IMG/VR virus record: IMGVR_UViG_3300001041_000018
Reading direction: 5' to 3' (one strand)
DNA length: 20,000 bases
From: an uncultured virus (IMG/VR IMGVR_UViG_3300001041_000018)
Lineage: Duplodnaviria; Heunggongvirae; Uroviricota; Caudoviricetes
Positions within the stretch are counted from its first letter, which is position 1; every line of letters starts with the position of its first letter. A model generated the notes under the pieces. The model had not been told where the DNA came from. It saw only the letters and a list, made by a program, of their open reading frames with translations, and did no database searches. Below are positions 5,523-19,667 of this stretch, piece by piece. Made by a program: the position numbers and the translations under genes.

Positions 5523-5813
5523 ATGAAAAAAATGATTATTTTGCTGGTCGTTGGGTTGTTGGCTGGTTGTGGAGATCCGGATTATGTGGAGCCCGCTAAA
5601 AATTACAAAATTGGAATTGGGACTAGAGACCTGGGAACACAAGAGGCTGCTATCCAAGCGTGCTCAATTACGAGTAGTGTAATTACTGAGGGCACTGGTA
5701 TTTTACTCCCCGGTGATATGTATATCCCTCCGGTTCTAAGGGTTAGTGCCACCGATACCCAGATCAAATGCTACCGAGACACAGGCTCTTACGACTATGT
5801 AACAGTTAATTAA
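5523..5813 (+). CDS. Small lipoprotein (96 aa), putative superinfection-exclusion/receptor-blocking protein
   Basis: MKKMIILLVVGLLAG-C signal peptide with an LAGC lipobox. AGGAGG lies 6 nt before ATG 5523. Two further Cys in the mature part. Only convincing + strand gene. Its stop overlaps the convergent gene's stop (TTAA 5810-5813). Function is inferred. Confidence 0.85.
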   Translation: MKKMIILLVVGLLAGCGDPDYVEPAKNYKIGIGTRDLGTQEAAIQACSITSSVITEGTGILLPGDMYIPPVLRVSATDTQIKCYRDTGSYDYVTVN

Positions 5814-8800
5814 GACAGAGAGCTTGTTTTGAGTTCAATAGCGACCAACGACCGGTACTGAACACTTATGTTAGTACCGGTTATGCTATAAATATGAGTA
5901 CCAGCAGCGGGGGAATCCATAATAGAAAAACTGACAAACCCTGCGTGAGTTCCATCTTGGCTATTTGGACCTAGTAAGGTGGTTGTAACTCCTGATGTGG
6001 TTCTTTTTAAGCGTAACTGAGCAGACGTTCCACCTAACTGTTGGAAACTGACTGTCAATAAAATGGGCTTACCTGTTGCTACGATGGTTACGGACTGTAT
6101 ATCTGCTTCGGTTGTTATTATTACTGCGTCAGGCGTGTATGCAGACTCCGGATTGATGATAGAGTTGGGAGCGACTAAATCATCAACATTTAGTGTACCG
6201 GCTGTCATATCATCTGCGTTCAGTGCCCCCCTCACTTTAAACGCAGTCCCATCCCAAACGAACCCGTTGGTCAGAACTCCACCGCTCACAGTGCCCACGC
6301 GCATTCGCGAGTTGCTTGTGTCCTTGCTGATCCAGAAGCCGGTACCATCAGAAGAATAACTTGCCAGCCCGGAAGTTATTCCTGCGGCACTTCCTGAGAT
6401 GGTCAGGAGGGAGTTGATGGTCAGGGCTGCGTTCAGTGTTAAGGTGCCCACCTGCCCACTTTCATTACTTAAGATGGAACTGGTGTTGTCTGCGGTAACC
6501 GGAGGTCCTCCTGTAATCAGATTGTAGGTGGGAATCGTGTAGCCCAACCCTGATAAAGTAACGGTCCCGCCGCCGCCTCCGGACAAAACCCCAGTGGAAC
6601 TGATTGAGATGCTGCTGTTGAGGATGCTTGACGGGGCGTTGGAGGCGTCTGTCTTAACAACACTCAGCGTGTCCGCAGTCACGCTACTGTTCAAAATACT
6701 TGTGGGAGCGTTGCTCAAGTCAACAGCCACAGCACCAATACCTGCGGGATTAGGTGCAGTAAACGTAAGGGTAGCGCCTCCGATTGTCACCGAGCCTCCT
6801 ACCGCTACGCTACCGGTAACAGCTAAGTTTGCTATCTTAGTTCCGTCAATGTTTCCATCTGTGTGAAATATGGATTGCCCTGCTGCGTTATTTATGACTA
6901 GGCCATAAGATCCTGCTCCAGTATTACCTAAAATAACCCTGTCGTAAGTCCCATCGTTAACTGTGATTCGTTTATTCGTTCCGTCAATTTTAACCCTATC
7001 ATCCCCTACAGCTATAACTGAGGTTGCAGCCAAAGTCCCTGTAGTAATTTTACCTGCGGATAGGTCATTAATTTTAGCTGAGGTAATCGTAGCGTTGGCT
7101 ATCTTAGCATCTGTAATAGTGGCGTCTGCAATTTTACCTACGTCTACTGCTAGGTTTGCAATTTTAGCTGTACTTATGGCAGCATCCACTATGTTACTCG
7201 TATTTACTGCCAAAGTTCCTATTTTAGCATTAGTAATGGCGGCATCTTGAATTTGTGCTGAACCTACTGCGAGGGCTCCAATCTTAGCATTAGTAATGGC
7301 GGCGTCCTGGATTTGTGCTGAACCTACTGCAAGATTGGCAATAAGGGCAGAAGTGATATAAGCGTTAGCCATTACCCCGTCGCCTACAGTCAGGGTATTG
7401 GCTGCTATCTTACCAGCCACAACACTATTAGTGGATAACTCCGCTGCTGTGATAGCCCCCGCTGCAATGTTACTTGCGGTAATTGTGTCGGCAGCTATGT
7501 CAGCAGCAACAATAGCCCCCGCTGCGATTTTACCTGCTGTTATGGCTCCCGCTGCAATTTCAGTTGCGCCTATGGCCCCTGCAGCAATGTTACTTGCGGT
7601 AATTGTGTCAGCCGCTATGTCAGCAGCAACAATAGTGCCTGCGGCAATTGTACCTGCGGTTACACTGTTAGCGGCTAGGTTTCCGGAAGCGGGGTCTATC
7701 GCGGCAACACTAAGTTTTGCTGCGGTCACGGCGCTCGCTGCTATCGCGGTGGCGGTAACTGCATTAGCGACTAAATTCGAAGCGGACACAGTGCCTGCAT
7801 TAAGATTACCTGTGCTGCTATTTATGGCGGCTATGCTGGTCTTGGTTGCGTCTATAGCACTGGCTGCCACTTTAGCCGCGCTAATAGCTCCATCTGCAAT
7901 TTTGGTATTGTCTACTGCTCCTGCCGCTAACTTAGTACTTAGTATTGCTGCGTCTGCGATTTTACTTGTAATTATCAGGCTGTCTGCAATCTTAGTTGCG
8001 TCAGTAATTTGAGCTAAATTTGCATTAGCCAGCAATCCGGTTATTTTACTTCCACCTAAATCTATCTCTCCATTTGCGATATTACTTGCTGTCAAAGTTA
8101 AGGCGGCTATATCTATACCCGAAACTAACGCTGCGGTTGTGTTCAGCACGTTGCTGTAGTTAACTGAAACGTTACCTGAGAAGTCTACAGCTTTGGCCCT
8201 TACGTAGTAAGTTGAGCCAGAAACAGCGTCTACGGTTAGGCTTGTCCCTGTAACGTTAAAGGAACGAAGCCCTACGGTAAATCCTGAGTTAGTCGCTACG
8301 TCTATCTGGTAGTAATTGATATCGGTGTCAGTAGATGCTACCCAACTGATGAACACATTTTTAAAGGCAGAAGTAACTGAAGACAGAACTACATCATTTG
8401 GTATAGTTTCGTCCTTAGTCGTAGTTATAGCCACCCAGGGGGAGTACGCCGAGATGTTACCCCATTTATCGTAGGCAGACACCCTGACGCTGTAACTAGT
8501 ATTAGCCACAAGCCCGCTAAATTTAGTAGTCAGGGTGTCCTTGCCGTTTATAGCAGTTTCAATATAGTCAACCTCAGCACCCTTCTTGAGTTGAACTGAA
8601 TACCCCGCTAGGTCTACTGTAGGGTCTGCTGGTTGACTCCAAGTAGCTGTAATAAATGTGGTATCTTGGATAGCCTGCGTGGTATCTAAGCCAGTGTCTA
8701 AGGTTAAACCTGTAGGTGTGTCAGGAGCTACCAAGTCAAGAGGGTCTAAACTTGAAACGGCAACTGAATATAATGGTGTCCAATTGAGGGAACTATAGTT

Positions 8801-9049
8801 AATATTTTTGGTGTCCTCAAATGAATCGTAGGCGGCTGCTCTAACAAAGTAGGTTCCAGCTTGAGATACTTTGTAAGTAAAAGTAGTTTCAGGCCCTGCG
8901 TTAATCTGAGTAGAAGCACTGGGTACAAAATCACCATTTACCAAGTCGTCCTGATGTACTGCATGAATGGTGTACCCAACAACATCCATTTCTACTGATG
9001 GTAAAAATGAAATAGTGAAGAATTTAATTCCAGCATTTAGTTCTATCAC
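5810..9049 (-). CDS. Central tail fibre/spike: N-terminal FN3 domains, Ala/Ile beta-helix-type repeats, C-terminal putative receptor-binding domain (gpJ C-terminal half / T5 pb4-like layout)
   Basis: GTG start with AAGGAG RBS. Three FN3-like units (YFVRAAAYD, YSVRVSAYDKWGNIS, YYVRAKAVDFSGNVS). Long 10-aa periodic ITASNIAAGA-type repeats. DRVILGN motif. Confidence 0.85.
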   Translation of the reverse strand: MIELNAGIKFFTISFLPSVEMDVVGYTIHAVHQDDLVNGDFVPSASTQINAGPETTFTYKVSQAGTYFVRAAAYDSFEDTKNINYSSLNWTPLYSVAVSSLDPLDLVAPDTPTGLTLDTGLDTTQAIQDTTFITATWSQPADPTVDLAGYSVQLKKGAEVDYIETAINGKDTLTTKFSGLVANTSYSVRVSAYDKWGNISAYSPWVAITTTKDETIPNDVVLSSVTSAFKNVFISWVASTDTDINYYQIDVATNSGFTVGLRSFNVTGTSLTVDAVSGSTYYVRAKAVDFSGNVSVNYSNVLNTTAALVSGIDIAALTLTASNIANGEIDLGGSKITGLLANANLAQITDATKIADSLIITSKIADAAILSTKLAAGAVDNTKIADGAISAAKVAASAIDATKTSIAAINSSTGNLNAGTVSASNLVANAVTATAIAASAVTAAKLSVAAIDPASGNLAANSVTAGTIAAGTIVAADIAADTITASNIAAGAIGATEIAAGAITAGKIAAGAIVAADIAADTITASNIAAGAITAAELSTNSVVAGKIAANTLTVGDGVMANAYITSALIANLAVGSAQIQDAAITNAKIGALAVGSAQIQDAAITNAKIGTLAVNTSNIVDAAISTAKIANLAVDVGKIADATITDAKIANATITSAKINDLSAGKITTGTLAATSVIAVGDDRVKIDGTNKRITVNDGTYDRVILGNTGAGSYGLVINNAAGQSIFHTDGNIDGTKIANLAVTGSVAVGGSVTIGGATLTFTAPNPAGIGAVAVDLSNAPTSILNSSVTADTLSVVKTDASNAPSSILNSSISISSTGVLSGGGGGTVTLSGLGYTIPTYNLITGGPPVTADNTSSILSNESGQVGTLTLNAALTINSLLTISGSAAGITSGLASYSSDGTGFWISKDTSNSRMRVGTVSGGVLTNGFVWDGTAFKVRGALNADDMTAGTLNVDDLVAPNSIINPESAYTPDAVIITTEADIQSVTIVATGKPILLTVSFQQLGGTSAQLRLKRTTSGVTTTLLGPNSQDGTHAGFVSFSIMDSPAAGTHIYSITGTNISVQYRSLVAIELKTSSLS
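7000..8110 (-). repeat. 10-aa (30-nt) periodic intragenic repeat tract with recent duplications
   Basis: 7224-7270 vs 7284-7330 match at 44/47 nt. 7464-7515 vs 7584-7635 match at 50/52 nt. Tract boundaries approximate. Confidence 0.85.
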
Positions 9050-9059
9050 AAATGCTCCT

Positions 9060-12000
9060 TTAGGTTAATATAGCAGGCGCTGGATTATTGACAGTAATAC
9101 TAACTGGTTTACTGGATCTACCTAGTCTATCGACAGCAACTACAATTATCGAAAATGATCTAGTAGGTCTGCCTGAGCCGTCCACATAGTTCTGCTCATA
9201 TTTGTAATCGTATGCCTCTGCATATACCTTTGTAGTGTGCCTAATCGAGCCGTCCGTGTTCTTAACGGTAATTTGGTACTCTCTAAGCCAACTGTCGGCG
9301 TTTTGAACGCCCAGAGGATTATCTGAGGCAATCGAGTTGAGCCCGAAGTCAGTAGCCGATGGCCTCTTCCAAGTGAACTTGGCGTCTTTGCCTACGAATT
9401 CAGAGTCGTTCCCTTGGCCTACCAACTGAAGCCCAGAGACTCCTTTAAGGAACTCCGTGTTTTCCACGTAGGGCGTGAGATGGAGGGAGGTATAGGGCTG
9501 CTTGGGATCTGCCAGAGCATCTGCTACGGTTTGCCTGGTCCCGTCTGAGTAAAGGGATATGCAGATGAAATCGTAGTCGCCTTCCTCAGAGATTTCCGGG
9601 ATGAACACGATTCCGGTTTTATCCACAGGAGTCAGTGAGTAATTACCTGCGATCCCGTAGTAGACGATGCAGCCTGTCCAGAGGAGGTTGTTTTGAACTG
9701 CGTAGTAAACCGTGGCTCCGGTCTTCAGGTTTCCTGTGGTATCCACGTAGATGGTCTCTTCAGCCACGACTGATGTGACAGAAGATTTCTCCACGGGAGG
9801 TAATTGGCTGAACGAAGGCATTGCCACGACCGGCATGTTAGTGACGTCATCCGAGTAAGCGTCTTCTAAGTATTCAACGGCTGTGACTTCGGTAAGCTCG
9901 TCTGAGTCCCTTTTAAGATTCAGAATCTTGAATGGTTTCACCGTGTTGGTGACTTGGCCCAAGATGTATGTTGCTCCGACTACAGGAGTGAAGTTCTGGG
10001 TTGCTCCCTCAGAATCCACGTAGGTCTTAGAAATATTCACTTCTGAATATGTCCCGTTAACCCCAGGCTCAACCACTCCGATTTCAACTGGAACCTTTCC
10101 TGCGTTCGAGATGCTGATTGCCAATTGGCCCCAGAGGTTATCTCCTTCAAGTAAGGTGTAGACGAAGGAATCACTCAAGGTGACCAGCCAGGAAGATCCG
10201 GCATCTTCCACTTCCTGAATAAGCCCACCCGAGCCCCATTGGGGTACGTCGTGTTGAACGCCTACCACGGAAAATACGGTGCTCATCAGGCCTTCCGTGC
10301 CGGTCTTAAAACTAACGATGGTCCCGGTGTTGCTCGCTACGTTCATCGTCCTAAACAAAAGATTTCTAACCTGGCGCTCGTCGGTGACCCCGATATAACT
10401 CAGGGTCTGCTTGCGTTCTTCTGTGGTTAAGTCACTTGCTTGGTACTCAGGAGTCTCAACCAAGAACGAATCTTGATCGTAGTCCTTGTCCTTGTTGTAA
10501 AAGCTAACCTCGTAAGTATTGGGGATCGCTCTGAGCGAAGCACAACTCTGCGAATAATCCTTGATGTTGCTCATGTTGAAAATCTGCGTGATGTTCTTCG
10601 GCTGGTCTACATCGAGGTAGACCATCCCATCTGCTTGGAAGAGCAACGCGTTCATCGAGGCGCAAATAACGTTGACCCATTCTCTCGCTGACTTGCTTTG
10701 GTCGATGACCAGGTTCAGCGAATACCTTACCCGAGGAAACACATCTTCATCATCGACCTCGTTGTAGGAGGCAGCAACCGTACCGTCCTCAAACAAATAT
10801 TGGTCGCAGTAGTAACTCATCTGCACTAGGTTAGCCAGAACCAGATTCTTCTTTTCCGGCTTAATACTAAAATGCTCGTTGAGGCCGTGAATCGGGTTGG
10901 TCAAGAGGTCCCAGAGGCACCAGATGGGGGAGTCGGTCCAGATGACGTTATCGGGGTCGGAATCGGTGCTCATGGTGCCATCCCAAGTGTCTTCCCAGTA
11001 GCGGATCGAGCGGTTGGTCAGAGGGTCGTACTTGCTGACGTAGCCTGTCGGCAGAGACACACAGGAGCCTTCGATGATCGACGTGATCGTGGGGAGGCTC
11101 CCTGAGATTTGATCCGTAGCTCTGATCCTGGCTCCTAATAGTGCGACCCAAGGGTAAGCCAAGCCTTCCGATGATATCTCTATAAGGTCGGCTAAGTAGA
11201 TGTCGTCTGAGATCGTAATGTCTGAAGCGTTCCTCGGGGTTACTCTAACGATCTTGATGTCGTAGTAGTCGATGCTGGGTAGGGTGATGGTTCTCGCTAC
11301 GGAGACTTCAGTTTTGGATGGCTTGTCAGTTTTGAAGTAGTCCCAATCCTTATCTTCTACCCCAGACTCTTTATTTGCCGCGAAGTTGTAGAGGCTCCAG
11401 TCAGTCGCATTGCTTTGTTTGGTGTAGACCTTAAATTGGACCTCGGCGTGCTCATTGCCGCTTTTCGAGTAGAAACCTAGCGCATTCAATCTAATTTTAA
11501 CAGATTCCACAGGAGTTTCTGTGGAGACTATGGCTCCAATGTTTTGGTTGTCAGGGTCTTCGTCAGGGATAAGCTGGTTGAAGCTAATTGAATTCTCTAT
11601 CTGGTTGAACCCCTTCATTACTGCTAAATTATCTAGGGTAGTTTCCGAAGTGTTAACGCTCACGTAATCAATTATCTTTGCATCTTCTGGTGTGTATACC
11701 GCAGTAAGTTCCAGTCGAGTTTTTACTACTAAATTACCAGAAAGAATACTTCCGAAATTGTGATTAACATAGTAACATACTCGGTTATCATAATTATAAA
11801 GTGAACTGGTAGTCTCATATAGTAAAATAGTCTCGTTGTAGTTGTATATACCTATGTGCGCGGTAAACGTACCTCCCCAGTAGGACACCGCGAAAGAGAC
11901 CTCATCTACATCTCCTGCGTTGGGTAATACAAATTTATGATAGGTACCATCAAAACTTGTATAGGGCACTTCCTCTAGGAACTTCACTTCCTTTGGTTGT

Positions 12001-12731
12001 ATGAGTGGGTTGTCCGAAGGAGGCAGATTAAACTGATTCCCCTTTCTATAGTAAAATGCTATGTCCTGAAAATTGTTTGCTTTACGCTCATTGATTTCGA
12101 AGCTGTCAGGCTCAATCTTATTTATTGGTCCTGCTGCAATACCAAGCAGGACATAAAGATAACTGTACTTGCCTAGAACATCCACGTAAGCGTTCAGGAC
12201 GTGCCCGCCAACCCGGTGCCTGCCGTAGACAATCGGGATCGGGGTTCCGGAGACCGTCGTATTCTTGATTCCAGAGAAGGTGTAGGTGGCTGAGGTGGAG
12301 TTGCCTGAGTCGAATGTAGGGAGCTTGGGGGAGCCGATTATTAAGTCGGCAGCACCTCCGATGGCTAGTGCTATAGCAAACTGATATACATAGGGATTCT
12401 TGATGGTCAAGGTGTTGACTGCTGCAATAACCACCGCAGCTAAAATCTGTAGCCCACCCTTCTCACCCTCAGGGACATCCCTACCAAACTCAATAACATC
12501 CTCAGCGCAAACAACCCGATGAAGGTCCTTCGGATCGAACAGGTATTCGCCGTTCAGTTTGATCGAGGTCTTCTCGGCTTCGGCGCCTTTATACACCGTG
12601 AGGAAAACCAGGAACTGCGGGAATTTACCAAAAAGGTCTTCTAAGGCATCAACCACGGTTGTGCCTGAGACTTCTACTTCATCCTGAAGCGAGGTGTAGC
12701 GAATCAGTTCTTTATCCAGAAGTATTTTCAC
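9060..12731 (-). CDS. Tail tip hub protein: lambda gpI-like (ubiquitin/MoaD-like N-terminus) fused to gpJ-like host-specificity/baseplate hub
   Basis: GTG start with AAGGA RBS. N-terminal beta-grasp-like segment ending PEGEKGG, hydrophobic helices, then the gpI-type motif YTFSGIKNTTVSGTPIPIVYGRHRVGG. gpJ-type motifs follow (IKIVRVT, YPWVAL, WTDSPIWCLWDLLTNPIHG, YCDQ, RYSLN), then C-terminal FN3-like domains. Confidence 0.9.
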   Translation of the reverse strand: MKILLDKELIRYTSLQDEVEVSGTTVVDALEDLFGKFPQFLVFLTVYKGAEAEKTSIKLNGEYLFDPKDLHRVVCAEDVIEFGRDVPEGEKGGLQILAAVVIAAVNTLTIKNPYVYQFAIALAIGGAADLIIGSPKLPTFDSGNSTSATYTFSGIKNTTVSGTPIPIVYGRHRVGGHVLNAYVDVLGKYSYLYVLLGIAAGPINKIEPDSFEINERKANNFQDIAFYYRKGNQFNLPPSDNPLIQPKEVKFLEEVPYTSFDGTYHKFVLPNAGDVDEVSFAVSYWGGTFTAHIGIYNYNETILLYETTSSLYNYDNRVCYYVNHNFGSILSGNLVVKTRLELTAVYTPEDAKIIDYVSVNTSETTLDNLAVMKGFNQIENSISFNQLIPDEDPDNQNIGAIVSTETPVESVKIRLNALGFYSKSGNEHAEVQFKVYTKQSNATDWSLYNFAANKESGVEDKDWDYFKTDKPSKTEVSVARTITLPSIDYYDIKIVRVTPRNASDITISDDIYLADLIEISSEGLAYPWVALLGARIRATDQISGSLPTITSIIEGSCVSLPTGYVSKYDPLTNRSIRYWEDTWDGTMSTDSDPDNVIWTDSPIWCLWDLLTNPIHGLNEHFSIKPEKKNLVLANLVQMSYYCDQYLFEDGTVAASYNEVDDEDVFPRVRYSLNLVIDQSKSAREWVNVICASMNALLFQADGMVYLDVDQPKNITQIFNMSNIKDYSQSCASLRAIPNTYEVSFYNKDKDYDQDSFLVETPEYQASDLTTEERKQTLSYIGVTDERQVRNLLFRTMNVASNTGTIVSFKTGTEGLMSTVFSVVGVQHDVPQWGSGGLIQEVEDAGSSWLVTLSDSFVYTLLEGDNLWGQLAISISNAGKVPVEIGVVEPGVNGTYSEVNISKTYVDSEGATQNFTPVVGATYILGQVTNTVKPFKILNLKRDSDELTEVTAVEYLEDAYSDDVTNMPVVAMPSFSQLPPVEKSSVTSVVAEETIYVDTTGNLKTGATVYYAVQNNLLWTGCIVYYGIAGNYSLTPVDKTGIVFIPEISEEGDYDFICISLYSDGTRQTVADALADPKQPYTSLHLTPYVENTEFLKGVSGLQLVGQGNDSEFVGKDAKFTWKRPSATDFGLNSIASDNPLGVQNADSWLREYQITVKNTDGSIRHTTKVYAEAYDYKYEQNYVDGSGRPTRSFSIIVVAVDRLGRSSKPVSITVNNPAPAILT

Positions 12732-12734
12732 GGT

Positions 12735-13109
12735 TCAGTCCTTTTTGTACCTGAGGACTGCACAAATCTTGTCAGCCCAAAACCCGCTAACGTGTGAATG
12801 ACAGGCAGTGCCTTTTAGAGTTGTGTGGAGGAAATCCCCTTTGTCGATTACGACGCCCAAATGAGTTGGGAGCCCTCGGTGTTTCAAAACCAGAACGTCG
12901 CCAAATTCAGGTAAACCAGAAATTTCAAAAAATCCAAATTCACTAGCTTTCAAGAAAATCAGATCCGGATCTGAGTCGTGCCAATTTTCCTCGTAGTCGA
13001 AGTCAGGGAGTTCAATTTGAAATTCATTTTCATAAAATTTCCTGACCAGGCTGAAGCAGTCCGACTTTTTATGGCAGTAGGGGATCTGAAGATAGGCTAA
13101 AAACCTCAC
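12735..13109 (-). CDS. NlpC/P60 family protein (lambda gpK C-terminal domain equivalent)
   Basis: PY...DCFSLVRKFY, GDVL, HLGV and FLH give a Cys-His-His triad. GTGA overlap with the upstream gene. Confidence 0.92.
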   Translation of the reverse strand: MRFLAYLQIPYCHKKSDCFSLVRKFYENEFQIELPDFDYEENWHDSDPDLIFLKASEFGFFEISGLPEFGDVLVLKHRGLPTHLGVVIDKGDFLHTTLKGTACHSHVSGFWADKICAVLRYKKD

Positions 13110-14071
13110 AGCCTGATCCTTCGAACTCCTGAGGGAACCCCAGGAAATCCACCGTATCGTTCGTGATTTCCTCTACCGATTTTCCCAATACCTGAAGTGC
13201 CTAAAGTAGAAACAGAAGCCAATTGAATACTAACCCCTTGATACACAATCCTTTTGTAGACCACTTTGTGCCCATCAGTCGTGGTCGAGGTAGGCTGGTT
13301 GGTTAGTGGAGAACCTTCAATAACTCCTTCGATTTCAAATACTTCCGATCCAATTGTTAGAAAATCGCCTGCACGCGGAGTCACCAGATTTGTGACAGTC
13401 GCTATAGAACTCCCTGCAGCAATCGTAGTACTTCCTGCATCAGCCACTTCAAATAAATGAAGCTTGCAGTCATCCAACGTCTTCTTGCAGGTTGCTAGAT
13501 TCCCAGAGTACATGCAGGTCCGGGGATCTTTGTACCTGAATCGACATACGTTGGAGTTGAAGGCAACCCGAGGAAGCCGAATATTGAAGTCAACAATCGG
13601 GTCCAGGTTGAAGACAATCGAGGTTTCGTTGGAGGTGTAGCTGTCCACCACGAAGGCGTCCTCGATGTAGGCTGTTGAATCCGGGCCTGGATCAGTGTTT
13701 GCCTGCGGAGTGACCGAGCCATCGGCCCCAAACGTGTAGGTAAAATCCGCGAAGGATTCATAGGTGGTTTTAACCGAGACTCTGGTTCCTCTCAAAGCTT
13801 TGAAGTCGTTCACGTAGTACTGAAAAACCCTACCTGGGTTCGCTACGGTCAGCGTGGCTTTGTCGATGGAGCCGTCAGAGGACATCGTAGTTCCGGAATA
13901 TTGAACCGGGAATTTAGAATAAACCACCGAACCGAACGAGATGTCGCAGTTGCTATCCACGATCCTTAAAGTAGGATTGTCAGGGATTTCAATTTCTATC
14001 AGATGAAGAAGTTTGCCTTGTGAAGATTCGGTGGTTTTCTTCTGGAAAAGCGGGTGATTAATCCGGGCCAT
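13106..14071 (-). CDS. Tail tip protein, lambda gpL-like (4-Cys Fe-S motif) with C-terminal insertion
   Basis: ATLTVAN motif, CRFRYK..C.Y......C.K...DC four-Cys cluster, terminal YGGFPG. Confidence 0.9.
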   Translation of the reverse strand: MARINHPLFQKKTTESSQGKLLHLIEIEIPDNPTLRIVDSNCDISFGSVVYSKFPVQYSGTTMSSDGSIDKATLTVANPGRVFQYYVNDFKALRGTRVSVKTTYESFADFTYTFGADGSVTPQANTDPGPDSTAYIEDAFVVDSYTSNETSIVFNLDPIVDFNIRLPRVAFNSNVCRFRYKDPRTCMYSGNLATCKKTLDDCKLHLFEVADAGSTTIAAGSSIATVTNLVTPRAGDFLTIGSEVFEIEGVIEGSPLTNQPTSTTTDGHKVVYKRIVYQGVSIQLASVSTLGTSGIGKIGRGNHERYGGFPGVPSGVRRIRL

Positions 14072-14399
14072 CTAAGTACCTCCAAGAGGTAGACGAAACA
14101 ATCAGCATCGCATAGACAGATTTCTTCATAAACTCCAAGTCCTTCTCCGAGGGCTCCGGTGAAGCTCCAGGATGAGTGTGGAAAAGGCACAGTACTCCAA
14201 GGCCTGAACGGGAGAGGGAATTCAGGGTCCGGAAGTACTGTGCTTGGTCCATCAGGAAGGAGTTGCTCGGGGTTTTGGAGATGTTGGGGATGAAGAAGAC
14301 TTCTTGGTTTGTGCTGATAATTCCGCAGATTTCTTTATTCGATTTGGTGCATTCTTTCTGAAGGTTTGATAGGACTTCAGGATCAACAGGAACTACCAC
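14058..14399 (-). CDS. JAB/MPN/Mov34 metalloprotease (lambda gpK N-terminal domain equivalent)
   Basis: EICG, N, and HTHPGASPEPSEKD give a complete E...HxH-x7-S-x2-D JAMM motif. Overlaps both neighbours. Confidence 0.93.
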   Translation of the reverse strand: MVVPVDPEVLSNLQKECTKSNKEICGIISTNQEVFFIPNISKTPSNSFLMDQAQYFRTLNSLSRSGLGVLCLFHTHPGASPEPSEKDLEFMKKSVYAMLIVSSTSWRYLDGPD

Positions 14400-14800
14400 G
14401 TCTGCTCCAGCTTAAACGAGAGCGTGTATATGGGACCTTTGGGTCCGTGCTCGATGTACTTTTTTTCGAGCGTGTCCGACTGGAAACGGACGTGGTATTT
14501 TGTTTTGGTCACTGGGTGCCACCAATCGAAAGAGGTGACAGAGCCATACATTTGAAGAAAGAAGGTCTCGATTGCTAGCGCCTGGTTCGCGTAGAGCGCC
14601 AGGTAGTTGCAATCCCAGACTTTTATGGGGTTGCTTTTTACCCTGCGCTGGGTATGTCCCGAATCCGCCTGAAAAGTGATTGAGGGAACCTTGATTGCCT
14701 CGGTTAATGGTCGGGCGGGATTGGGTAGTCTGTGGTCCGTCCCTGTGGTAGAGGGCAGACCAGCCGTTGTATAATTTGTAGGGAAAACTGGGGTTGGCAT
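14393..14800 (-). CDS. Distal tail protein (lambda gpM-like)
   Basis: GAGGAG RBS. DSGHTQR, IETFF, SFDWWHP and terminal LEQ motifs. First structural gene after the tape measure. Confidence 0.85.
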   Translation of the reverse strand: MPTPVFPTNYTTAGLPSTTGTDHRLPNPARPLTEAIKVPSITFQADSGHTQRRVKSNPIKVWDCNYLALYANQALAIETFFLQMYGSVTSFDWWHPVTKTKYHVRFQSDTLEKKYIEHGPKGPIYTLSFKLEQTW

Positions 14801-14868: not shown

Positions 14869-15402
14869 TCAATTTTCTTGGAAAGAAATATGCCAATCTG
14901 AATTCAAATCCGTTTCTGAATACATCCGGTCAAAATAATATTCCCGGAACTCAGTAAATTGCTCAGGGTTATTAAATTTGAACGAGAACATCTTGTGGAA
15001 TTCTTTGTGGCACTGATCACATAAAGTGATCCCGTTGGTTAACTCGATTCTCAATTCAGGATGAGCGTGGTAGGAATAGAGGTGGTGGGCGGCTAACTTA
15101 TTTGGGTGCTCACAGAGGAAACAGGATTTCCCATCTCTTGATTTAATAGCACCTGCCCATTTCATGTGCTCGACGCCGCGTCCCTTCAAGGTCCCTTGCT
15201 TCATCAATTCGTGGAACCTTTCTCTTCGCTTACAACCGCAGGAGGTGGTGCTGCCTCTTTTCAGGCTAGCAGCACGCACCTCCTTAAAAGTCCCACAGTT
15301 ACACAGGCAGAGCCAGCAGGTTCTTCCGTTTTTATTTGGCGCTCTTTTAAGCACCAGAAGTCTGCCGAAGGTTTTATTTGTTAGATCCTCTGGAGTACGC
15401 AT
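14869..15402 (-). CDS. Free-standing HNH (homing-type) endonuclease
   Basis: N-terminal DLT..FGRL.V...WLC.C.CG...SCGC Cys-rich domain. C-terminal RD..CFLC...AHH...NGITLCDQCH..FH HNH domain. Starts 2 nt after the tape measure stop. Confidence 0.9.
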   Translation of the reverse strand: MRTPEDLTNKTFGRLLVLKRAPNKNGRTCWLCLCNCGTFKEVRAASLKRGSTTSCGCKRRERFHELMKQGTLKGRGVEHMKWAGAIKSRDGKSCFLCEHPNKLAAHHLYSYHAHPELRIELTNGITLCDQCHKEFHKMFSFKFNNPEQFTEFREYYFDRMYSETDLNSDWHISFQEN

Positions 15403-15404
15403 TA

Positions 15405-18400
15405 TTATATTGCTAGCTTCATTGTTCTGTGTATGGTGCCTTTTTTGTTGATGTCAAAACTAACGATGTTGATAACCTGATTTGCATCCACTGGCTGCTG
15501 CGGGATGCTATTTACGTCAGCTACGTTGATCAAAGTTAAATTGACTGGGATTTCTCCTGAACTACCTTTGCCTCTGCTGGTTCCGCCTACCAAACCCCCT
15601 TCTGCAAATTTCTGTGCTCGGAGGTTTTCAAGGAATCCGATACCCACCTTCCGGGTTACTGACGCCGGTAAAATAAATTCACCTGGCTGCAGAAGTGCAT
15701 GAACACTGTCTTTGTTGGGGTCAGCCCCAGGCATCATCGGGACTAATCCACCTGACGCAAAGGCCATCAAGGGGTTCTTGCCAATCCTGTTGGTGCCTAC
15801 CAAACCGCCTGTGGCTCCTGTAGCAGCCAGGCCTGTGGCAATATCCTGCCCACCTACGTTTTCGATAGCGGGGATAGTTCCCTCACCGCCCGACCCTGCG
15901 GCGACACCCGCGATCTTCTTAACCAAAGCCACAACCATCAGCTTGATTATGTATTCTTGCAGCGTCTTCAGGATCAGCTTCATGGTCTCAGCAAGCCCAT
16001 CTTTAAAACGAGACCAAGCATTGCCCTGCTTATCTAACAACTTTTCCTGCTCTCTTAAAGAAGCATTAACCGCCTCCAATCCAGACGCCTGCTCATTCAA
16101 CGCGGACTTGTCGGCGCCGGTCATGAACTCGCCTTTCGACGTGATCGAACTAATTGAGGCCTGGATCTGTGCCTTCTGAACATTCAACTCGTTGATCTTG
16201 GACTTGATGCTGTCAATGGCATCTTGATCGGGCAGCGTGAAGGTGGAGAGGGTGTTGCTGAGGGTGCCTGTGATTCCGTTGAATGCTGAGTTGGTGATGT
16301 CGGAGCCGAACCGCTCACTAAGCGCCCCAGTGTCTGTCTGCTCCCGAAACGCGCCACGAACACCCTGACTGAAGCGAATGGAATCTGTAAGGGAAGCTAT
16401 CCGCTTCAGTTCCTCGCGCTGCTCTGCGAGTAGTGCGTTCTGTGCCTCCATCGCCACTATGTTGTTATCATGTAATGCCGTGTACTTCTCGAACTCAGCG
16501 CGGGTTGCTTCCGTGCGCTCCGTCTTCTTCATCCAAAGCTGGATTTCCTCGTTGTCTTTTGTGAGGTTGTGTGTCTTCATCTCCCCCATTTTAATTGTTT
16601 CACTTAGTAACTCTTGGTCGAGTTTATTTACCTCTTCTGCTGTCCACGCCTCTTCCTTCCGCAATGTAATCCGCTGCTGCACGGACTTCATTGTCATCAT
16701 GTCCTGCTTTTCAAGCCGTGTTGCAATCAGGTTGGGCGATTTAGGACCATGCCCATCCTTCTTGGCTTCAGCCATCTTAGCAATCTCAGCCTGCTCTTTA
16801 ATTTTTCTGGCCTGATCTGCTTTCTCTTGTTCTTTCTGTGTCATTTCTACTTCAGCAAGACCCAACTTAACTTGGGCAGGAGTGACTTTTTTCTTGTTGT
16901 AACCTGTGATGCCGTAGGACCCGTCTGCATTCAACTGAGCAGAACCACCGAAGTCGCCCGCGAGTTGCGCGAATGCTGCTGCCCTCTCCGCTTTCCTCCG
17001 GGCAGCATATTCCTCATCAAGCTGTTTCTCTACTGCAAGCTTTTTATCTTTGGTTTCGTCACCAGCCTTTTGTAGCGCTTGGAGTTCCGCCTCACCGGTC
17101 AAACGTGCTTGATGAAGAGCTTCCTGCTTGAGTTCCTCGCGATTTTTCTCTTCCCTGTTTTTGACCCGTTTGAGAATGTCAACGCCACTTTCTTCCGCTG
17201 CGTGTGAAGGAGGTGGTTTATCAGGCTTCTCCGGTTTGGGCTTGTCAAAAATTGGGAAGACCTGTCCTAATTCGTCGGACGCGTAGGGCATTTGAACAGG
17301 CTTCAGAGTTTCAGTGCGTAAAAGATTCAACTCACCAATACTTTTCTTCATCCTGTCAACGTCACGCTGAATGTCGTCTTTAGTCCTGCCTGGATTATAC
17401 GCACCAGAATTCTTTGATTTGACCAACTCCTGCTCATATAAAGCAAGAACCGATTGAGAGGAGGAAATATCGCGGCGGATGCTGTTTGCCTTATTCAGGC
17501 GCGAGATATCATCAGCCTGGCTTTCCTTGTTGATCCGAACTTTAATGTTGTAGAGTTCCGTAAGACTAATTTTTTCTTTGTTCAGAAGTTCTAAGTACTC
17601 CGGATGCTTCTCTGCAAATTTAGTAATTTCAGTCCTAAGTTCAGCACTGAGCTTGATGGATTGGCCCTTGAGCTTGGCTATTTTGGGCAAGGCGAGTTCG
17701 CCTTCTTCCCGATAAAGCTTAGCTGCCTCCTTCATCGACTCATTATGGGACGAGTTTTCAGTCGCAGCGCGGTTCAGGAGCTTTACATACTCGCCAGTGA
17801 TGGTCCTCTTTTTGGTCAAGGCTTCGTTGCTCGCCTTAATTGCATCTTCCTCTTTGTGGAGGTAGTCGCCTAGCTTACCTATAGCAAAGCCAAGCAAAAC
17901 CACCGCTCCTAGCAACTGGCCTATCCCTGTTGCACTAGCAGCGATGCCCAGAAGAACTAGACTCCCTGACAGTGCTTTCACAGCCAAAACAATCCCACCA
18001 ATTGCAGCAGCAACCAACAGGAGTTGTCCTGGTGCGGAAGCGAGCCCCCTGACGAACGAAGTAATTCCTTCGGTGAGCATAGATAAGGCACCACCCAACC
18101 CACCCTGGCCTAAAGTCACCACCGTGCTCGCGAAGGTCTGCTTGATCACGTTGAGGCGGGCCTGGGCACCCTGCATGGATTTGTCGAAGGCGATCATTGT
18201 CGCGTTGGTGCCTGTGACGTTCTCGGTCATCAGGCGGAACGCATCTCCTCCGAGGGTCATGGAGGTGATCATCGCACGGCCCACACGAGTGTCCATCGCA
18301 GCCATCAGGTCCTGCACCCTGACGTTGTGATTCCGGAACACGTCGGCTACTTCGTCCAAGGTGTGCTTGGTCGTGTCGATGGACTCTTCATCGATCCCAT

Positions 18401-19667
18401 AAACTTCGAGAAGCTTCTTGAGGCGAGGCTTAGGAGCCGCCAAATCCTTTATCAACTGAGACAAGCCCGTACCGATTGTAGAGGGCTCGATGCCTGCCTG
18501 GGCTTGGGTCGCAATCATCCCAAGGGTCTGCTCCATCGACATGCCCATCTGCGCGGCTTGCGGAGCCAGGTAGTTGAAAGCCGTAGCCAAACCTTCCGTT
18601 GAAAGTTTGGATTCGTTCAGGGCAGCGGTCATTGCATTCGTGATTCTTGCTACATTTTCCGCTGCGATGCCATACACGTTCATCGCGGTGGTGGTGAGAT
18701 CTGCAGAAACAGCAGGGCTGGAGCCTGTGGCTGTAGCGAACATACCAACCGCTTCAGACACGGCAGGCAACTGCTCCATCTTCACGCCCGCCTGAGCGAG
18801 AACCTTCATGAGTCCGGATACTTCATCCGCTGTGAACCTGGAGTTCTTGGCGATCTTCAAGATGGCATCACTGAACACGTTCACACTGTCTACAGGAGCC
18901 CCCGAAATAGCCGCGATGTCGTACATCGCCTGATTCAAGGAGATCGCGGAACGCGTGGCTTCCTGAAGCTGGTTCGTAACTGCGAACATCGCTCCTCGGA
19001 TGGAGTAGAACTCCGCGATCCGAGCAGTTAGTTTACCGAGTGCGCCATTCAGCACATTTACGTGCTTCGGGCTTTGGCTGAGCGCTGCGTTCATCTTTGT
19101 AGCTTCTGCCCGAATATGGGCAAGGGCTTCAGGGTTCAGATTCTGAGCCTGCACAGAGGACCTAACGAAACCGCCCTGTACCCCTTGGTACTTAGCGCCT
19201 TGAGTCCTGGCTGCTGCATTCCAAGCTAACTGCTGCTGAGAGGACTGAGCCTGTATCTGCTGCACAGCCCTTTTACGTTCTTCAAGCTCCTGCTGAGTCT
19301 GCCTGCGGATCAGGACCATCCGCTCATTGCCTGCGGTTTCAAGGTCCTTATTGCGCTGCCTGATCATCGCTTTTTCGGCATTCAGGACTTTCTCAGTTCC
19401 TTCTCCAAACTTACCTAAGTTCTTGAAGAACTTCTCGAACGAGGAAGAGTCCTCAAAAGCCTTCATCAAAGATTTGACCTTTTCCGGAGCTAAGCCCGTA
19501 GCCTTACCCAAAGCCTCAATCCGAGCAGTCAACTTCTCCAAGCTCTTCTGAGCAGCGTCTGGCGACTGACCAAGCTTCGCCAACAAGCCATTCAGCCGGT
19601 CGATCTGCTCCTTGGCCTTACCCAAATCTATATTTATCTCAATTCCCAGTTTCTCATTCTGCGACAT
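15405..19667 (-). CDS. Phage tail tape measure protein (1420 aa)
   Basis: GGAGAG RBS. Helical Ala/Lys/Glu-rich sequence with a TP901-type core (LAQAG...FATATG...LAPQAAQMGMSMEQ), a hydrophobic central segment, coiled coils, and C-terminal FASGG..DSVHALLQPGEFI motif. Confidence 0.95.
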   Translation of the reverse strand: MSQNEKLGIEINIDLGKAKEQIDRLNGLLAKLGQSPDAAQKSLEKLTARIEALGKATGLAPEKVKSLMKAFEDSSSFEKFFKNLGKFGEGTEKVLNAEKAMIRQRNKDLETAGNERMVLIRRQTQQELEERKRAVQQIQAQSSQQQLAWNAAARTQGAKYQGVQGGFVRSSVQAQNLNPEALAHIRAEATKMNAALSQSPKHVNVLNGALGKLTARIAEFYSIRGAMFAVTNQLQEATRSAISLNQAMYDIAAISGAPVDSVNVFSDAILKIAKNSRFTADEVSGLMKVLAQAGVKMEQLPAVSEAVGMFATATGSSPAVSADLTTTAMNVYGIAAENVARITNAMTAALNESKLSTEGLATAFNYLAPQAAQMGMSMEQTLGMIATQAQAGIEPSTIGTGLSQLIKDLAAPKPRLKKLLEVYGIDEESIDTTKHTLDEVADVFRNHNVRVQDLMAAMDTRVGRAMITSMTLGGDAFRLMTENVTGTNATMIAFDKSMQGAQARLNVIKQTFASTVVTLGQGGLGGALSMLTEGITSFVRGLASAPGQLLLVAAAIGGIVLAVKALSGSLVLLGIAASATGIGQLLGAVVLLGFAIGKLGDYLHKEEDAIKASNEALTKKRTITGEYVKLLNRAATENSSHNESMKEAAKLYREEGELALPKIAKLKGQSIKLSAELRTEITKFAEKHPEYLELLNKEKISLTELYNIKVRINKESQADDISRLNKANSIRRDISSSQSVLALYEQELVKSKNSGAYNPGRTKDDIQRDVDRMKKSIGELNLLRTETLKPVQMPYASDELGQVFPIFDKPKPEKPDKPPPSHAAEESGVDILKRVKNREEKNREELKQEALHQARLTGEAELQALQKAGDETKDKKLAVEKQLDEEYAARRKAERAAAFAQLAGDFGGSAQLNADGSYGITGYNKKKVTPAQVKLGLAEVEMTQKEQEKADQARKIKEQAEIAKMAEAKKDGHGPKSPNLIATRLEKQDMMTMKSVQQRITLRKEEAWTAEEVNKLDQELLSETIKMGEMKTHNLTKDNEEIQLWMKKTERTEATRAEFEKYTALHDNNIVAMEAQNALLAEQREELKRIASLTDSIRFSQGVRGAFREQTDTGALSERFGSDITNSAFNGITGTLSNTLSTFTLPDQDAIDSIKSKINELNVQKAQIQASISSITSKGEFMTGADKSALNEQASGLEAVNASLREQEKLLDKQGNAWSRFKDGLAETMKLILKTLQEYIIKLMVVALVKKIAGVAAGSGGEGTIPAIENVGGQDIATGLAATGATGGLVGTNRIGKNPLMAFASGGLVPMMPGADPNKDSVHALLQPGEFILPASVTRKVGIGFLENLRAQKFAEGGLVGGTSRGKGSSGEIPVNLTLINVADVNSIPQQPVDANQVINIVSFDINKKGTIHRTMKLAI

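What the first reader, a model, noticed from the sequence alone, without database searches (positions are those of the whole stretch)
12453..14399. Ubiquitin-like leader ending in Gly-Gly fused to the tail hub, with an intact stand-alone JAB protease nearby
Seen: residues 1-93 of the 1223-aa protein look MoaD/ubiquitin-like and end EGEKGG (GG at 12453-12458). The gpI-like part is fused directly to gpJ. Three genes upstream is a separate JAB with a full JAMM motif, and a Cys-His-His NlpC/P60 is adjacent. No E1/E2 is in the window. Known: JAB proteases cleave after the C-terminal Gly of Ubl domains; lambda gpK (JAB+NlpC) and gpI (Ubl) form such a pair; bacterial Bil defence conjugates Ubls to phage central tail fibres. 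Inference: a deubiquitinase-like maturation switch in which JAB removes the Ubl cap from the hub polyprotein during tail tip assembly. More speculatively, JAB could strip host-conjugated Ubls.
Basis: partly seen in the sequence, partly recalled or inferred. Interest (0 to 1): 0.7.

Follow-up and report, generated by a model that had tools for sequence, protein, structure and literature searches.

The report
Rearranged phage tail ubiquitin-like/protease pair
An uncultured phage of about 100 kb builds its tail tip with the known lambda-type pair of a ubiquitin-like cap and a deubiquitinase-like protease, only with the genes split and fused differently, so it is a variant of something already described rather than a new system.

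Summary
The 1223-aa protein (9060-12731, minus strand) is a lambda I-J fusion. Residues 1-89 fold as a MoaD/CysO/SAMP-type beta-grasp. Two hydrophobic helices and the gpI plug region follow, then gpJ. The third gene upstream is a 113-aa JAB with a complete JAMM motif. A Cys-His-His NlpC/P60 lies directly upstream.

One correction: Gly92-Gly93 is not conserved. The conserved tail is Pro87-x-Gly89 (G89 in 67 of 71 cluster representatives, GG at 92-93 in 1 of 71).

- Iyer, Burroughs and Aravind (2006) predicted that the JAB of lambda K cuts the ubiquitin-like domain off I, and noted I-J fusions.
- A 2026 meeting report says the Davidson group has shown this cleavage in lambda.
- Hör and Sorek had already floated the anti-Bil idea.

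This scan also found the lambda K/I pair before on other DNA.

What is particular here is the gene layout: M, JAB, L, NlpC/P60, I::J, so K is split and I is fused. All 13 related viral contigs share it, with the JAB catalytic residues invariant.

A JAB-Ubl complex prediction gave only weak support. Three Nickievirus genomes carry N-terminally extended J proteins with a poly-Gly linker but no detectable JAB, so a JAB may not be universally needed.

The parts
9060..12731 (-). I-J fusion protein (1223 aa): ubiquitin-like domain, gpI-like hydrophobic helices and plug region, then gpJ-like hub/central fibre
   Evidence: phrog_32 at residues 86-182, phrog_31 at 371-1013, PF13550 at 677-842; 15 full-length homologues of 1207-1886 aa, the window's own protein among them, share the same N-terminus. 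The GTG start has an AAGGA motif upstream.
12465..12731 (-). Ubiquitin-like beta-grasp domain, residues 1-89, ending in the conserved P87-x-G89
   Evidence: AF2 pLDDT 83.5. Foldseek top hits are CysO, SAMP1 and MoaD. P87 occurs in 64 of 71 and G89 in 67 of 71 representatives.
12453..12464 (-).
   Evidence: Read. G92 occurs in 23 of 71, G93 in 5 of 71, and GG at 92-93 in 1 of 71 representatives.
12318..12452 (-). Two hydrophobic helices (residues 94-138), counterpart of lambda gpI H1/H2
   Evidence: Helix 93-109 in the model. Colinear with lambda gpI in the alignment and in phmmer alignments to solved tail assembly proteins. H1/H2 of gpI are described in PMC11101478.
12162..12317 (-). gpI C-terminal (plug/beta-augmentation) region, residues 139-190
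   Evidence: phmmer hits to 8iyk_I, 9e7m, 25vf_9 and 9l9p_A 'tail (tip) assembly protein (I)'. tblastn hits to annotated 'tail assembly protein I' genes of lambdoid phages.
12735..13109 (-). Stand-alone NlpC/P60 peptidase (124 aa), the C-terminal half of a split gpK; C18-H83-H95
   Evidence: PF00877 E 3e-10. phrog_30 profile positions 405-521. The triad columns are conserved with lambda K and the nickie protein.
13106..14071 (-). gpL-like minor tail protein (321 aa)
   Evidence: PF05100 E 8e-10; phrog_18 E 1.9e-21.
14058..14399 (-). Stand-alone JAB/MPN+ metallopeptidase (113 aa), the N-terminal half of a split gpK. E23 is at 14331-14333; H74-D87 (HTHPGASPEPSEKD) is at 14139-14180.
   Evidence: PF14464 E 4.7e-16. 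phrog_5556 E 1.1e-20 and phrog_30 positions 306-385. A profile of the family hits solved JAMM1 5lda_A at E 2.8e-11. E23, C25, G26, H74, H76, S84 and D87 are invariant in 12 sequences down to 30% identity.
14393..14800 (-). 135-aa protein in the gpM (distal tail protein) position
   Evidence: Assigned by position only: no Pfam hit, weak PHROG hits. BLASTP E 0.003 to the protein in the same position in phage nickie.
15405..19667 (-). Tape measure protein (1420 aa), which marks the start of the tail-tip module
   Evidence: PF10145 E 3.3e-34.

Best explanation
This is the lambda K/I tail-tip maturation pair in a rearranged layout.

The hub/central-fibre protein is made as an I-J fusion. Its first 89 residues are a MoaD/SAMP-like ubiquitin-like domain. 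During tail-tip assembly the stand-alone JAB zinc peptidase binds this domain and cuts the peptide bond after its C-terminal glycine. That glycine is most likely G89 of the conserved P-x-G, not G93. Cutting releases the cap and leaves a mature hub protein that begins with the two hydrophobic helices and the lumen plug, which in this phage stay covalently joined to J. The Ubl probably keeps the hydrophobic I segment soluble or ordered until the tip is assembled. The JAB is not expected in the virion.

Shown here: the folds, the motifs, their conservation and the gene order.

Inferred from lambda: the cleavage itself, its timing and its site.
For: 1. Ubl fold.

2. JAB: complete JAMM motif with catalytic residues invariant across 12 sequences at 30-86% identity. 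Its closest solved relative is archaeal JAMM1, which I recall as a protease of MoaD-like SAMPs.

3. Synteny: all 13 related viral loci fetched through the Ubl have M-like, JAB, L, NlpC, I::J in that order.

4. Approached from the JAB side, 17 of 19 further JAB loci have an I-family gene with its Ubl region directly downstream of the JAB(-NlpC) gene. The other 2 are JABs outside tail modules.

5. The JAB and the NlpC protein match consecutive parts of one gpK-family profile, phrog_30 positions 306-385 and 405-521, so K is split.

6. The genes are tightly packed. JAB overlaps the M-like gene by 7 nt and the L gene by 14 nt.

7. There is no E1 in the genome, so the Ubl is a cleavage module, not a conjugation module.

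8. Literature:
- The prediction is in PMC1779556.
- In lambda virions only gpI residues 101 or 134 onwards are resolved, and gpK is absent (PMC10721106, PMC11101478, PMC12617516).
- A meeting report states that gpK cleaves the Ubl of gpI after gpI joins the tip complex (PMC12908700).

9. Complex prediction of JAB plus Ubl residues 1-97 plus Zn gave weak support only.
- Score 0.32; best of 3 controls 0.01.
- The mark was reached by 116 of 157 solved complexes and 2 of 215 mismatched pairs. At 0.60 or under it was reached by only 18 of those 157 and by both mismatches that passed.
- The runs agree in at least 83% of contacts, and the partner's pLDDT is at least 82.
- A like complex (JAMM1 with SAMP2, recalled) is solved, so the pass may be from memory.

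10. Site: G89 lies 6 residues after the last strand (79-83) of the model, like the tails of ubiquitin and MoaD. G93 would be 10 residues out (inference).
Against: - No experiment or read-out here shows cleavage in this phage.
- The complex prediction was only weak and gave no contacts. It therefore cannot say which glycine sits at the zinc.
- Three Nickievirus genomes have M-like, L, NlpC and a J with an ~80-residue N-terminal extension plus a poly-Gly linker, but no Prok-JAB match at E<=1. Lambda and BUCTxx99 rang as positive controls. A JAB may therefore not be universally required. That nickie's extension is a beta-grasp is not shown: hhalign gave E 0.15, and the fold tool does not take that protein.
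- A Gly-Gly just before the first hydrophobic helix recurs in lambda gpI (G100-G101) and in solved 9l9p_A. Cleavage there cannot be excluded.
- The lambda experiment is known to me only from one paragraph of a meeting report. Three searches aimed at the primary work and two earlier ones on the K/I pair found no full paper.
Confidence: 0.7

Rival explanations
1. The Ubl is a permanent or merely flexible N-terminal domain of the hub protein, acting as an intramolecular chaperone for the hydrophobic helices, and is not cut off. The JAB then has another substrate, for example the tape measure protein, whose C-terminal processing in lambda has no known protease.
For: Nickieviruses keep an N-terminal extension and a poly-Gly linker on J without any detectable JAB. 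PMC12617516 states that it is unknown how gpH cleavage is catalysed.
Against: The JAB and the Ubl-bearing I are adjacent or near each other in 30 of 32 JAB loci examined. The meeting report says gpK cleaves the gpI Ubl. The N-terminal domain of gpI is not seen in any of the lambda virion structures read.
Confidence: 0.12
2. The stand-alone JAB is mainly a counter-defence deubiquitinase. It strips Ubls that host Bil-type systems conjugate to the central tail fibre.
For: Bil conjugates its Ubl to the central tail fibre, and Hör and Sorek speculate that DUB domains of phage tail assembly proteins may undo this (10.1101/2023.09.04.556158, passages read). Here the JAB is a free protein encoded beside its potential target.
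Against: The JAB co-occurs with the phage's own Ubl, which is explanation enough. Matches to PADLOC JAB models are weak (best E 1e-6), against E 1.1e-20 for a phage 'tail protein' PHROG. No host, no Bil system and no assay are available. This role is not exclusive of the main reading.
Confidence: 0.07
3. The papain-like NlpC/P60 peptidase, not the JAB, releases the Ubl. The JAB is auxiliary.
For: NlpC/P60 lies directly upstream of I::J in every locus, and it is the only peptidase kept in nickieviruses. Iyer et al. raise this possibility.
Against: JAMM enzymes are the known proteases of MoaD-like Ubls. The meeting report attributes the cut to gpK, described there by its deubiquitinating domain. 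The JAB catalytic residues are invariant.
Confidence: 0.07

Closest known systems
Phage lambda gpK / gpI (TAPK / TAPI of Iyer, Burroughs and Aravind 2006, PMC1779556)
   Same: Same tail-tip module after the tape measure protein. It has a MoaD-like Ubl with a conserved C-terminal Gly, then hydrophobic helices and a plug, plus a JAB with a JAMM motif and an NlpC/P60 with Cys-His-His. The I region matches solved gpI by sequence.
   Different: K is split into two genes with L between them, so the order is M-JAB-L-NlpC instead of M-L-K. I is fused to J, so after any cut the plug stays covalently on the hub. The Ubl tail is P-x-G instead of lambda's P-R-V-A-G.
TAPI-TAPJ fusions noted in prophages by Iyer et al. 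2006 (Table 1 row 5)
   Same: The Ubl-bearing I is fused to J. Fusions are common: 63 of the 150 best cluster representatives are 900 aa or longer.
   Different: [quoted passage not shown] In this clade the JAB is kept, as a separate gene upstream of L.
Archaeal JAMM1 with SAMP1/2, and mycobacterial Mec+ with CysO (functions recalled)
   Same: The closest solved sequence relative of the JAB is JAMM1. The closest solved folds of the Ubl are CysO and SAMP1. Each is a JAMM enzyme that cuts after the C-terminal Gly of a MoaD-like Ubl.
   Different: Those Ubls are free proteins activated by an E1 for sulfur transfer or conjugation. Here there is no E1, and the Ubl is a cis N-terminal cap on a structural protein.
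Pseudomonas phages of genus Nickievirus (nickie, hairong, Nican01)
   Same: Genomes of about 112 kb with M-like, L, a 126-aa NlpC/P60 and a J carrying an N-terminal extension, hydrophobic helices and the I plug motif.
   Different: No JAB is detectable in 0 of 3 genomes. They have a poly-Gly linker. The fold of the N-terminal extension is untested.
Phage T5 baseplate hub pb3 plug domain
   Same: The lumen plug is part of the hub polypeptide, as in this I-J fusion (comparison made in PMC10721106).
   Different: In pb3 the plug is an internal insertion, and that paper describes no Ubl or JAB for it.

Membership tests
Lambda K/I tail-tip maturation pair (TAPK/TAPI) | I has an N-terminal ThiS/MoaD-like beta-grasp domain | tested here: met
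   AF2 pLDDT 83.5; all 7 Foldseek hits at E<=1e-3 are CysO, SAMP1 or MoaD-related.
Lambda K/I tail-tip maturation pair (TAPK/TAPI) | [quoted passage not shown] | tested here: met
   G89 in 67 of 71 representatives and invariant in 11 of 11 close homologues. The GG at 92-93 is not conserved (1 of 71).
Lambda K/I tail-tip maturation pair (TAPK/TAPI) | An I C-terminal part (hydrophobic helices plus plug) homologous to gpI | tested here: met
   phrog_32 E 1.8e-15; 8iyk_I E 8.5e-5, 25vf_9 E 3.2e-6; tblastn to annotated I genes.
Lambda K/I tail-tip maturation pair (TAPK/TAPI) | A JAB/MPN+ domain with the E...HxHx7SxxD zinc site | tested here: met
   PF14464 E 4.7e-16. E23, H74, H76, S84 and D87 are invariant. 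One subclade has x6 instead of x7.
Lambda K/I tail-tip maturation pair (TAPK/TAPI) | An NlpC/P60 domain with the Cys-His-His triad | tested here: met
   PF00877 E 3e-10. C18, H83 and H95 align with lambda K.
Lambda K/I tail-tip maturation pair (TAPK/TAPI) | JAB and NlpC/P60 fused in one K protein directly upstream of I | tested here: not met
   They are two genes with the L gene between them, and likewise in all 13 related loci. This is an architectural feature, not a functional one.
Lambda K/I tail-tip maturation pair (TAPK/TAPI) | I is a separate small protein upstream of J | tested here: not met
   A single 1223-aa ORF. Fusion is a known variant.
Lambda K/I tail-tip maturation pair (TAPK/TAPI) | The JAB cleaves the Ubl from I during tip assembly | not testable with these tools
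   Only a weak complex prediction, plus a meeting report for lambda.
Bil-type / bacterial ubiquitination systems | E1 (ThiF-like) and E2 enzymes encoded together with the Ubl and the JAB | tested here: not met
   No ThiF match at E<=0.1 in the 102,669-bp record. E2 families were not searched.

The most novel reading that the evidence does not exclude
In this clade the JAB has been freed from K and placed ahead of L. This makes it a diffusible deubiquitinase with two jobs. It uncaps the phage's own hub polyprotein at a checkpoint tied to L joining the tip. It also strips host Bil-type Ubls from the same protein. JAB-less relatives such as the nickieviruses would then show that the cap can work uncut or be cut by NlpC/P60, so that the Ubl's primary role is chaperoning the membrane-active I segment.
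Probability: 0.08. Interest if true: 0.6.

Novelty: new variant of a known kind. Interest (0 to 1): 0.25.

Why it matters
The window gives a natural 'split' version of lambda's K protein, with the JAB and NlpC/P60 as separate small proteins, and a hub protein that carries the ubiquitin-like cap in cis. Such a layout would let the two peptidase activities be tested separately on a single substrate. It also amends the 2006 statement that I-J fusions go with JAB-less NlpC proteins: here the JAB is kept, elsewhere in the module. Beyond that, the biology is the known lambda K/I maturation step, so the general significance is modest.

Tried and rejected
1. Gly92-Gly93 as the conserved Ubl end. Rejected on conservation, though not excluded as a cut site.

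2. A broad survey of Ubl against JAB co-occurrence starting from the I side.
- The search for related loci with a diverse alignment (A3) failed for lack of a conserved stretch.
- A single distant fusion protein (P0093) found no viral locus.
- The survey was therefore done only from the Ubl of the close family (13 loci) and from the JAB side (32 loci). The frequency of Ubl-bearing I without a JAB remains unmeasured.

3. Virion mass spectrometry for the lambda gpI N-terminus. Table S2 of PMC10721106 gives 1 peptide and 9.87% coverage without naming the peptide, so it is not informative.

4. hhalign of the window's Ubl profile against lambda gpI (E 0.003, probability 10%) and against nickie's N-terminus (E 0.15). 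Both are too weak to use alone.

5. tblastn of the JAB against cultured phages found only actinophage stand-alone metalloproteases near head genes, 93 records at under 40% identity. This says nothing about tail function.

6. No PADLOC model matched the Ubl or the NlpC/P60.
Full report
**Setting**

The window is the minus strand of bases 22906-42905 of a 102,669-bp viral record, estimated 91% complete. Its genes run right to left.

| Gene | Coordinates | Length | Main evidence |
|---|---|---|---|
| Tape measure protein | 15405-19667 | 1420 aa | PF10145 |
| HNH endonuclease | 14869-15402 | 177 aa | phrog_374 |
| Protein in the gpM position | 14393-14800 | 135 aa | position only |
| JAB | 14058-14399 | 113 aa | PF14464, E 4.7e-16 |
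| gpL-like protein | 13106-14071 | 321 aa | PF05100 |
| NlpC/P60 | 12735-13109 | 124 aa | PF00877 |
| I-J fusion | 9060-12731 | 1223 aa | see below |
| fn3-bearing fibre | 5810-9049 | 1079 aa | fn3 |

The genes are tightly packed. JAB overlaps its neighbours by 7 and 14 nt, L overlaps NlpC by 4 nt, and the fusion starts 3 nt after the NlpC stop, behind an AAGGA motif.

**The observation**

Residues 88-93 of the 1223-aa protein are E-G-E-K-G-G, and G92-G93 are bases 12453-12458, exactly as reported.

- **The fold.** An AF2 model of residues 1-110, built on 11 homologues, has mean pLDDT 83.5 and pTM 0.78. It has strands at 2-5, 18-20, 56-59 and 79-83 and helices between them, followed by a helix at 93-109. 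All seven Foldseek hits in PDB at E<=1e-3 are CysO, SAMP1 or MoaD-related proteins, and MoaD, Urm1 and ThiS follow. The N-terminus is therefore a MoaD-type beta-grasp.
- **The I part.** Residues 86-182 match the PHROG of lambda-type tail assembly protein I (E 1.8e-15). Residues 115-183 match solved lambda gpI, 8iyk_I, at E 8.5e-5, and other solved 'tail assembly proteins' match better. tblastn hits annotated I genes of lambdoid phages.
- **The J part.** Residues 371-1013 match gpJ (E 7e-75). The protein is an I-J fusion.
- **The JAB.** It has E23, H74-T-H76, S84 and D87, which is the full JAMM motif.
- **The NlpC/P60.** It has C18, H83 and H95, aligned with the triad of lambda K.
- **A split K.** The JAB and the NlpC protein match consecutive parts of one gpK-family profile, phrog_30 positions 306-385 and 405-521. 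Together they are a split K.
- **No conjugation machinery.** The whole record holds one JAB, one copy of the Ubl and no ThiF-type E1.

**Correction to the observation**

The Gly-Gly is not the conserved end of the Ubl.

- In 11 close homologues the invariant residues near the end are G83, P87 and G89.
- I used the 71 cluster representatives that a profile of the Ubl aligns through this region. These are 71 of the 75 that the profile matched, drawn from the best 150 of 726 hits. Among them, P87 is kept in 64, G89 in 67, G92 in 23, G93 in 5, and GG at 92-93 in 1.
- G89 lies six residues after the last strand of the model, which is the usual length of a ubiquitin or MoaD tail. G93 would lie ten residues out (inference).
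- Lambda gpI reads ...IVPRVAG96AKSG100G101VFQIV.... By analogy G89 corresponds to lambda G96.
- A Gly-Gly just before the first hydrophobic helix does recur, in lambda and in solved 9l9p_A. It cannot be ruled out as a cut site.

**Relatives**

Fifteen full-length fusion proteins, 38-100% identical over residues 1-200 and including the window's own, were found. Several sit on contigs of 105-115 kb.

Thirteen viral loci were fetched through the Ubl. All of them show the same order: M-like, small JAB (101-113 aa), L, NlpC/P60, I::J. In all 13 the JAB keeps E...CG, HxH and SxxD, and one subclade has a loop shorter by one residue.

Thirty-two loci were fetched through the JAB.
- 13 are the same contigs as above.
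- 17 of the other 19 have the ordinary lambda order, with a JAB(-NlpC) gene directly followed by an I-family gene that includes the Ubl region. Four of these have a stand-alone 136-aa JAB.
- The remaining 2 are JABs outside tail modules.

Fusion of I to J is common: 63 of the best 150 representatives are 900 aa or longer.

Stenotrophomonas phage BUCTxx99 (109 kb) has the canonical M-L-K-I-J order.

The three Nickievirus genomes examined (about 112 kb) have M-like, L, a 126-aa NlpC/P60 and a J with an ~80-residue N-terminal extension ending in a run of 3 to 8 glycines, one of the linkers being broken by a Gln. None has a Prok-JAB match at E<=1, whereas lambda and BUCTxx99 rang in the same search. 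Whether that extension is a beta-grasp is untested.

**What is known**

- **The 2006 prediction.** Iyer, Burroughs and Aravind described the Ubl of tail assembly protein I, its conserved C-terminal glycine and the flanking K with JAB and NlpC/P60. They predicted that the JAB releases the Ubl by cutting at that glycine, and they noted that in some prophages I is fused to J (PMC1779556; passages read).
- **Lambda structures.** Cryo-EM papers resolve gpI only from residue 101 or 134 onwards, inside the tip lumen, and find no gpK in virions (PMC10721106, PMC11101478, PMC12617516; passages read).
- **Reported experiment.** A report of an October 2025 meeting states that the Davidson group showed gpK cleaves the Ubl from gpI. 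It adds that this happens only after gpI has joined other tip proteins (PMC12908700; one passage read). Three searches aimed at the primary work and two earlier ones on the K/I pair found no primary paper.
- **The anti-Bil idea.** Hör and Sorek printed it as a speculation (10.1101/2023.09.04.556158; passages read).
- **This scan.** Earlier notes had reached the same reading for lambda-type K/I pairs on other DNA.

**Mechanism**

The most likely reading (about 0.7) is the lambda mechanism in a new layout. The Ubl caps the hub polyprotein. The free JAB cuts after G89 during tip assembly. The mature hub then begins with the hydrophobic helices and the plug, which remain joined to J, much as the plug of T5 pb3 is part of its hub.

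A prediction of the JAB with Ubl residues 1-97 and zinc gave weak support only.
- Score 0.32; best of 3 controls 0.01.
- The mark was reached by 116 of 157 solved complexes and 2 of 215 mismatched pairs. At 0.60 or under it was reached by only 18 of those 157 and by both mismatches that passed.
- The runs agree in at least 83% of contacts, and the partner's pLDDT is at least 82.
- No contacts were given.
- A similar solved complex may explain the pass.

The rivals are an uncut cap with a different JAB substrate, a counter-defence role for the JAB, and cleavage by NlpC/P60. They are kept at low odds, mainly because of the JAB-less nickieviruses.

**Verdict**

What is particular here is the architecture: K is split with L between its halves, and I is fused to J, conserved across a clade of uncultured phages of about 100-115 kb. 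Interest is low to moderate.

Noticed in passing
window 14869-15402 (-): An HNH endonuclease gene (phrog_374, E 4.9e-24) sits between the tape measure gene and the M-like gene. Among relatives it varies. L004 has this gene plus a second upstream ORF of 345 aa with a similar N-terminal motif, which I did not scan. The L007-type loci have none. It looks like a mobile insertion in the tail module.
   Followed up: partly
window 13106-14071 (-): The gpL-like protein is 321 aa here, 213 aa in L007-type relatives and 357-361 aa in L010/L013/L014. An insertion of variable size appears to lie near the C-terminal Cys-rich region, before the HERYGGFPG end.
   Followed up: no
window 5810-9049 (-): The 1079-aa protein after the hub has fn3 domains, followed by a long Ala-rich run of short repeats of the type 'IA.GAI.A.KIA'. 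It is probably a fibre shaft.
   Followed up: no
L016 / lambda NC_001416 14139-14443: In the lambda reference the Prok-JAB match is split over two frames (14139-14252 and 14258-14443), and the annotated K starts inside the JAB domain. I did not check that.
   Followed up: partly
L038-L041 (e.g. L038 6920-14201): A third layout: a stand-alone 136-aa JAB directly upstream of a 254-aa I-family protein and a J-like protein of more than 2000 aa. No NlpC/P60 ORF was recognised between them.
   Followed up: partly
L043 415-756; L045 6914-7294; actinophage records: These are stand-alone JAB proteins of 113-126 aa with intact JAMM motifs that are not next to an I gene. In Mycobacterium and Gordonia phages they lie among early structural genes (genes 10-12) and are annotated as metalloprotease. 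Their substrate is unknown to me.
   Followed up: no
proteins P0024-P0167: 54 of the best 150 I-family representatives are 260-449 aa, many of them 300-350 aa. That is longer than lambda gpI (223 aa) and shorter than fusions. They may be I with an extra C-terminal domain, or gene fragments at contig ends. No genomic context was available.
   Followed up: no
L001 8551-9300; L050 2548-; L051 2572-: In all three nickieviruses the J protein carries a glycine run (GGGGGGG, GGGQGGGG, GGGGGGGG) between the N-terminal extension and the hydrophobic helices, and the genome has no detectable JAB.
   Followed up: partly
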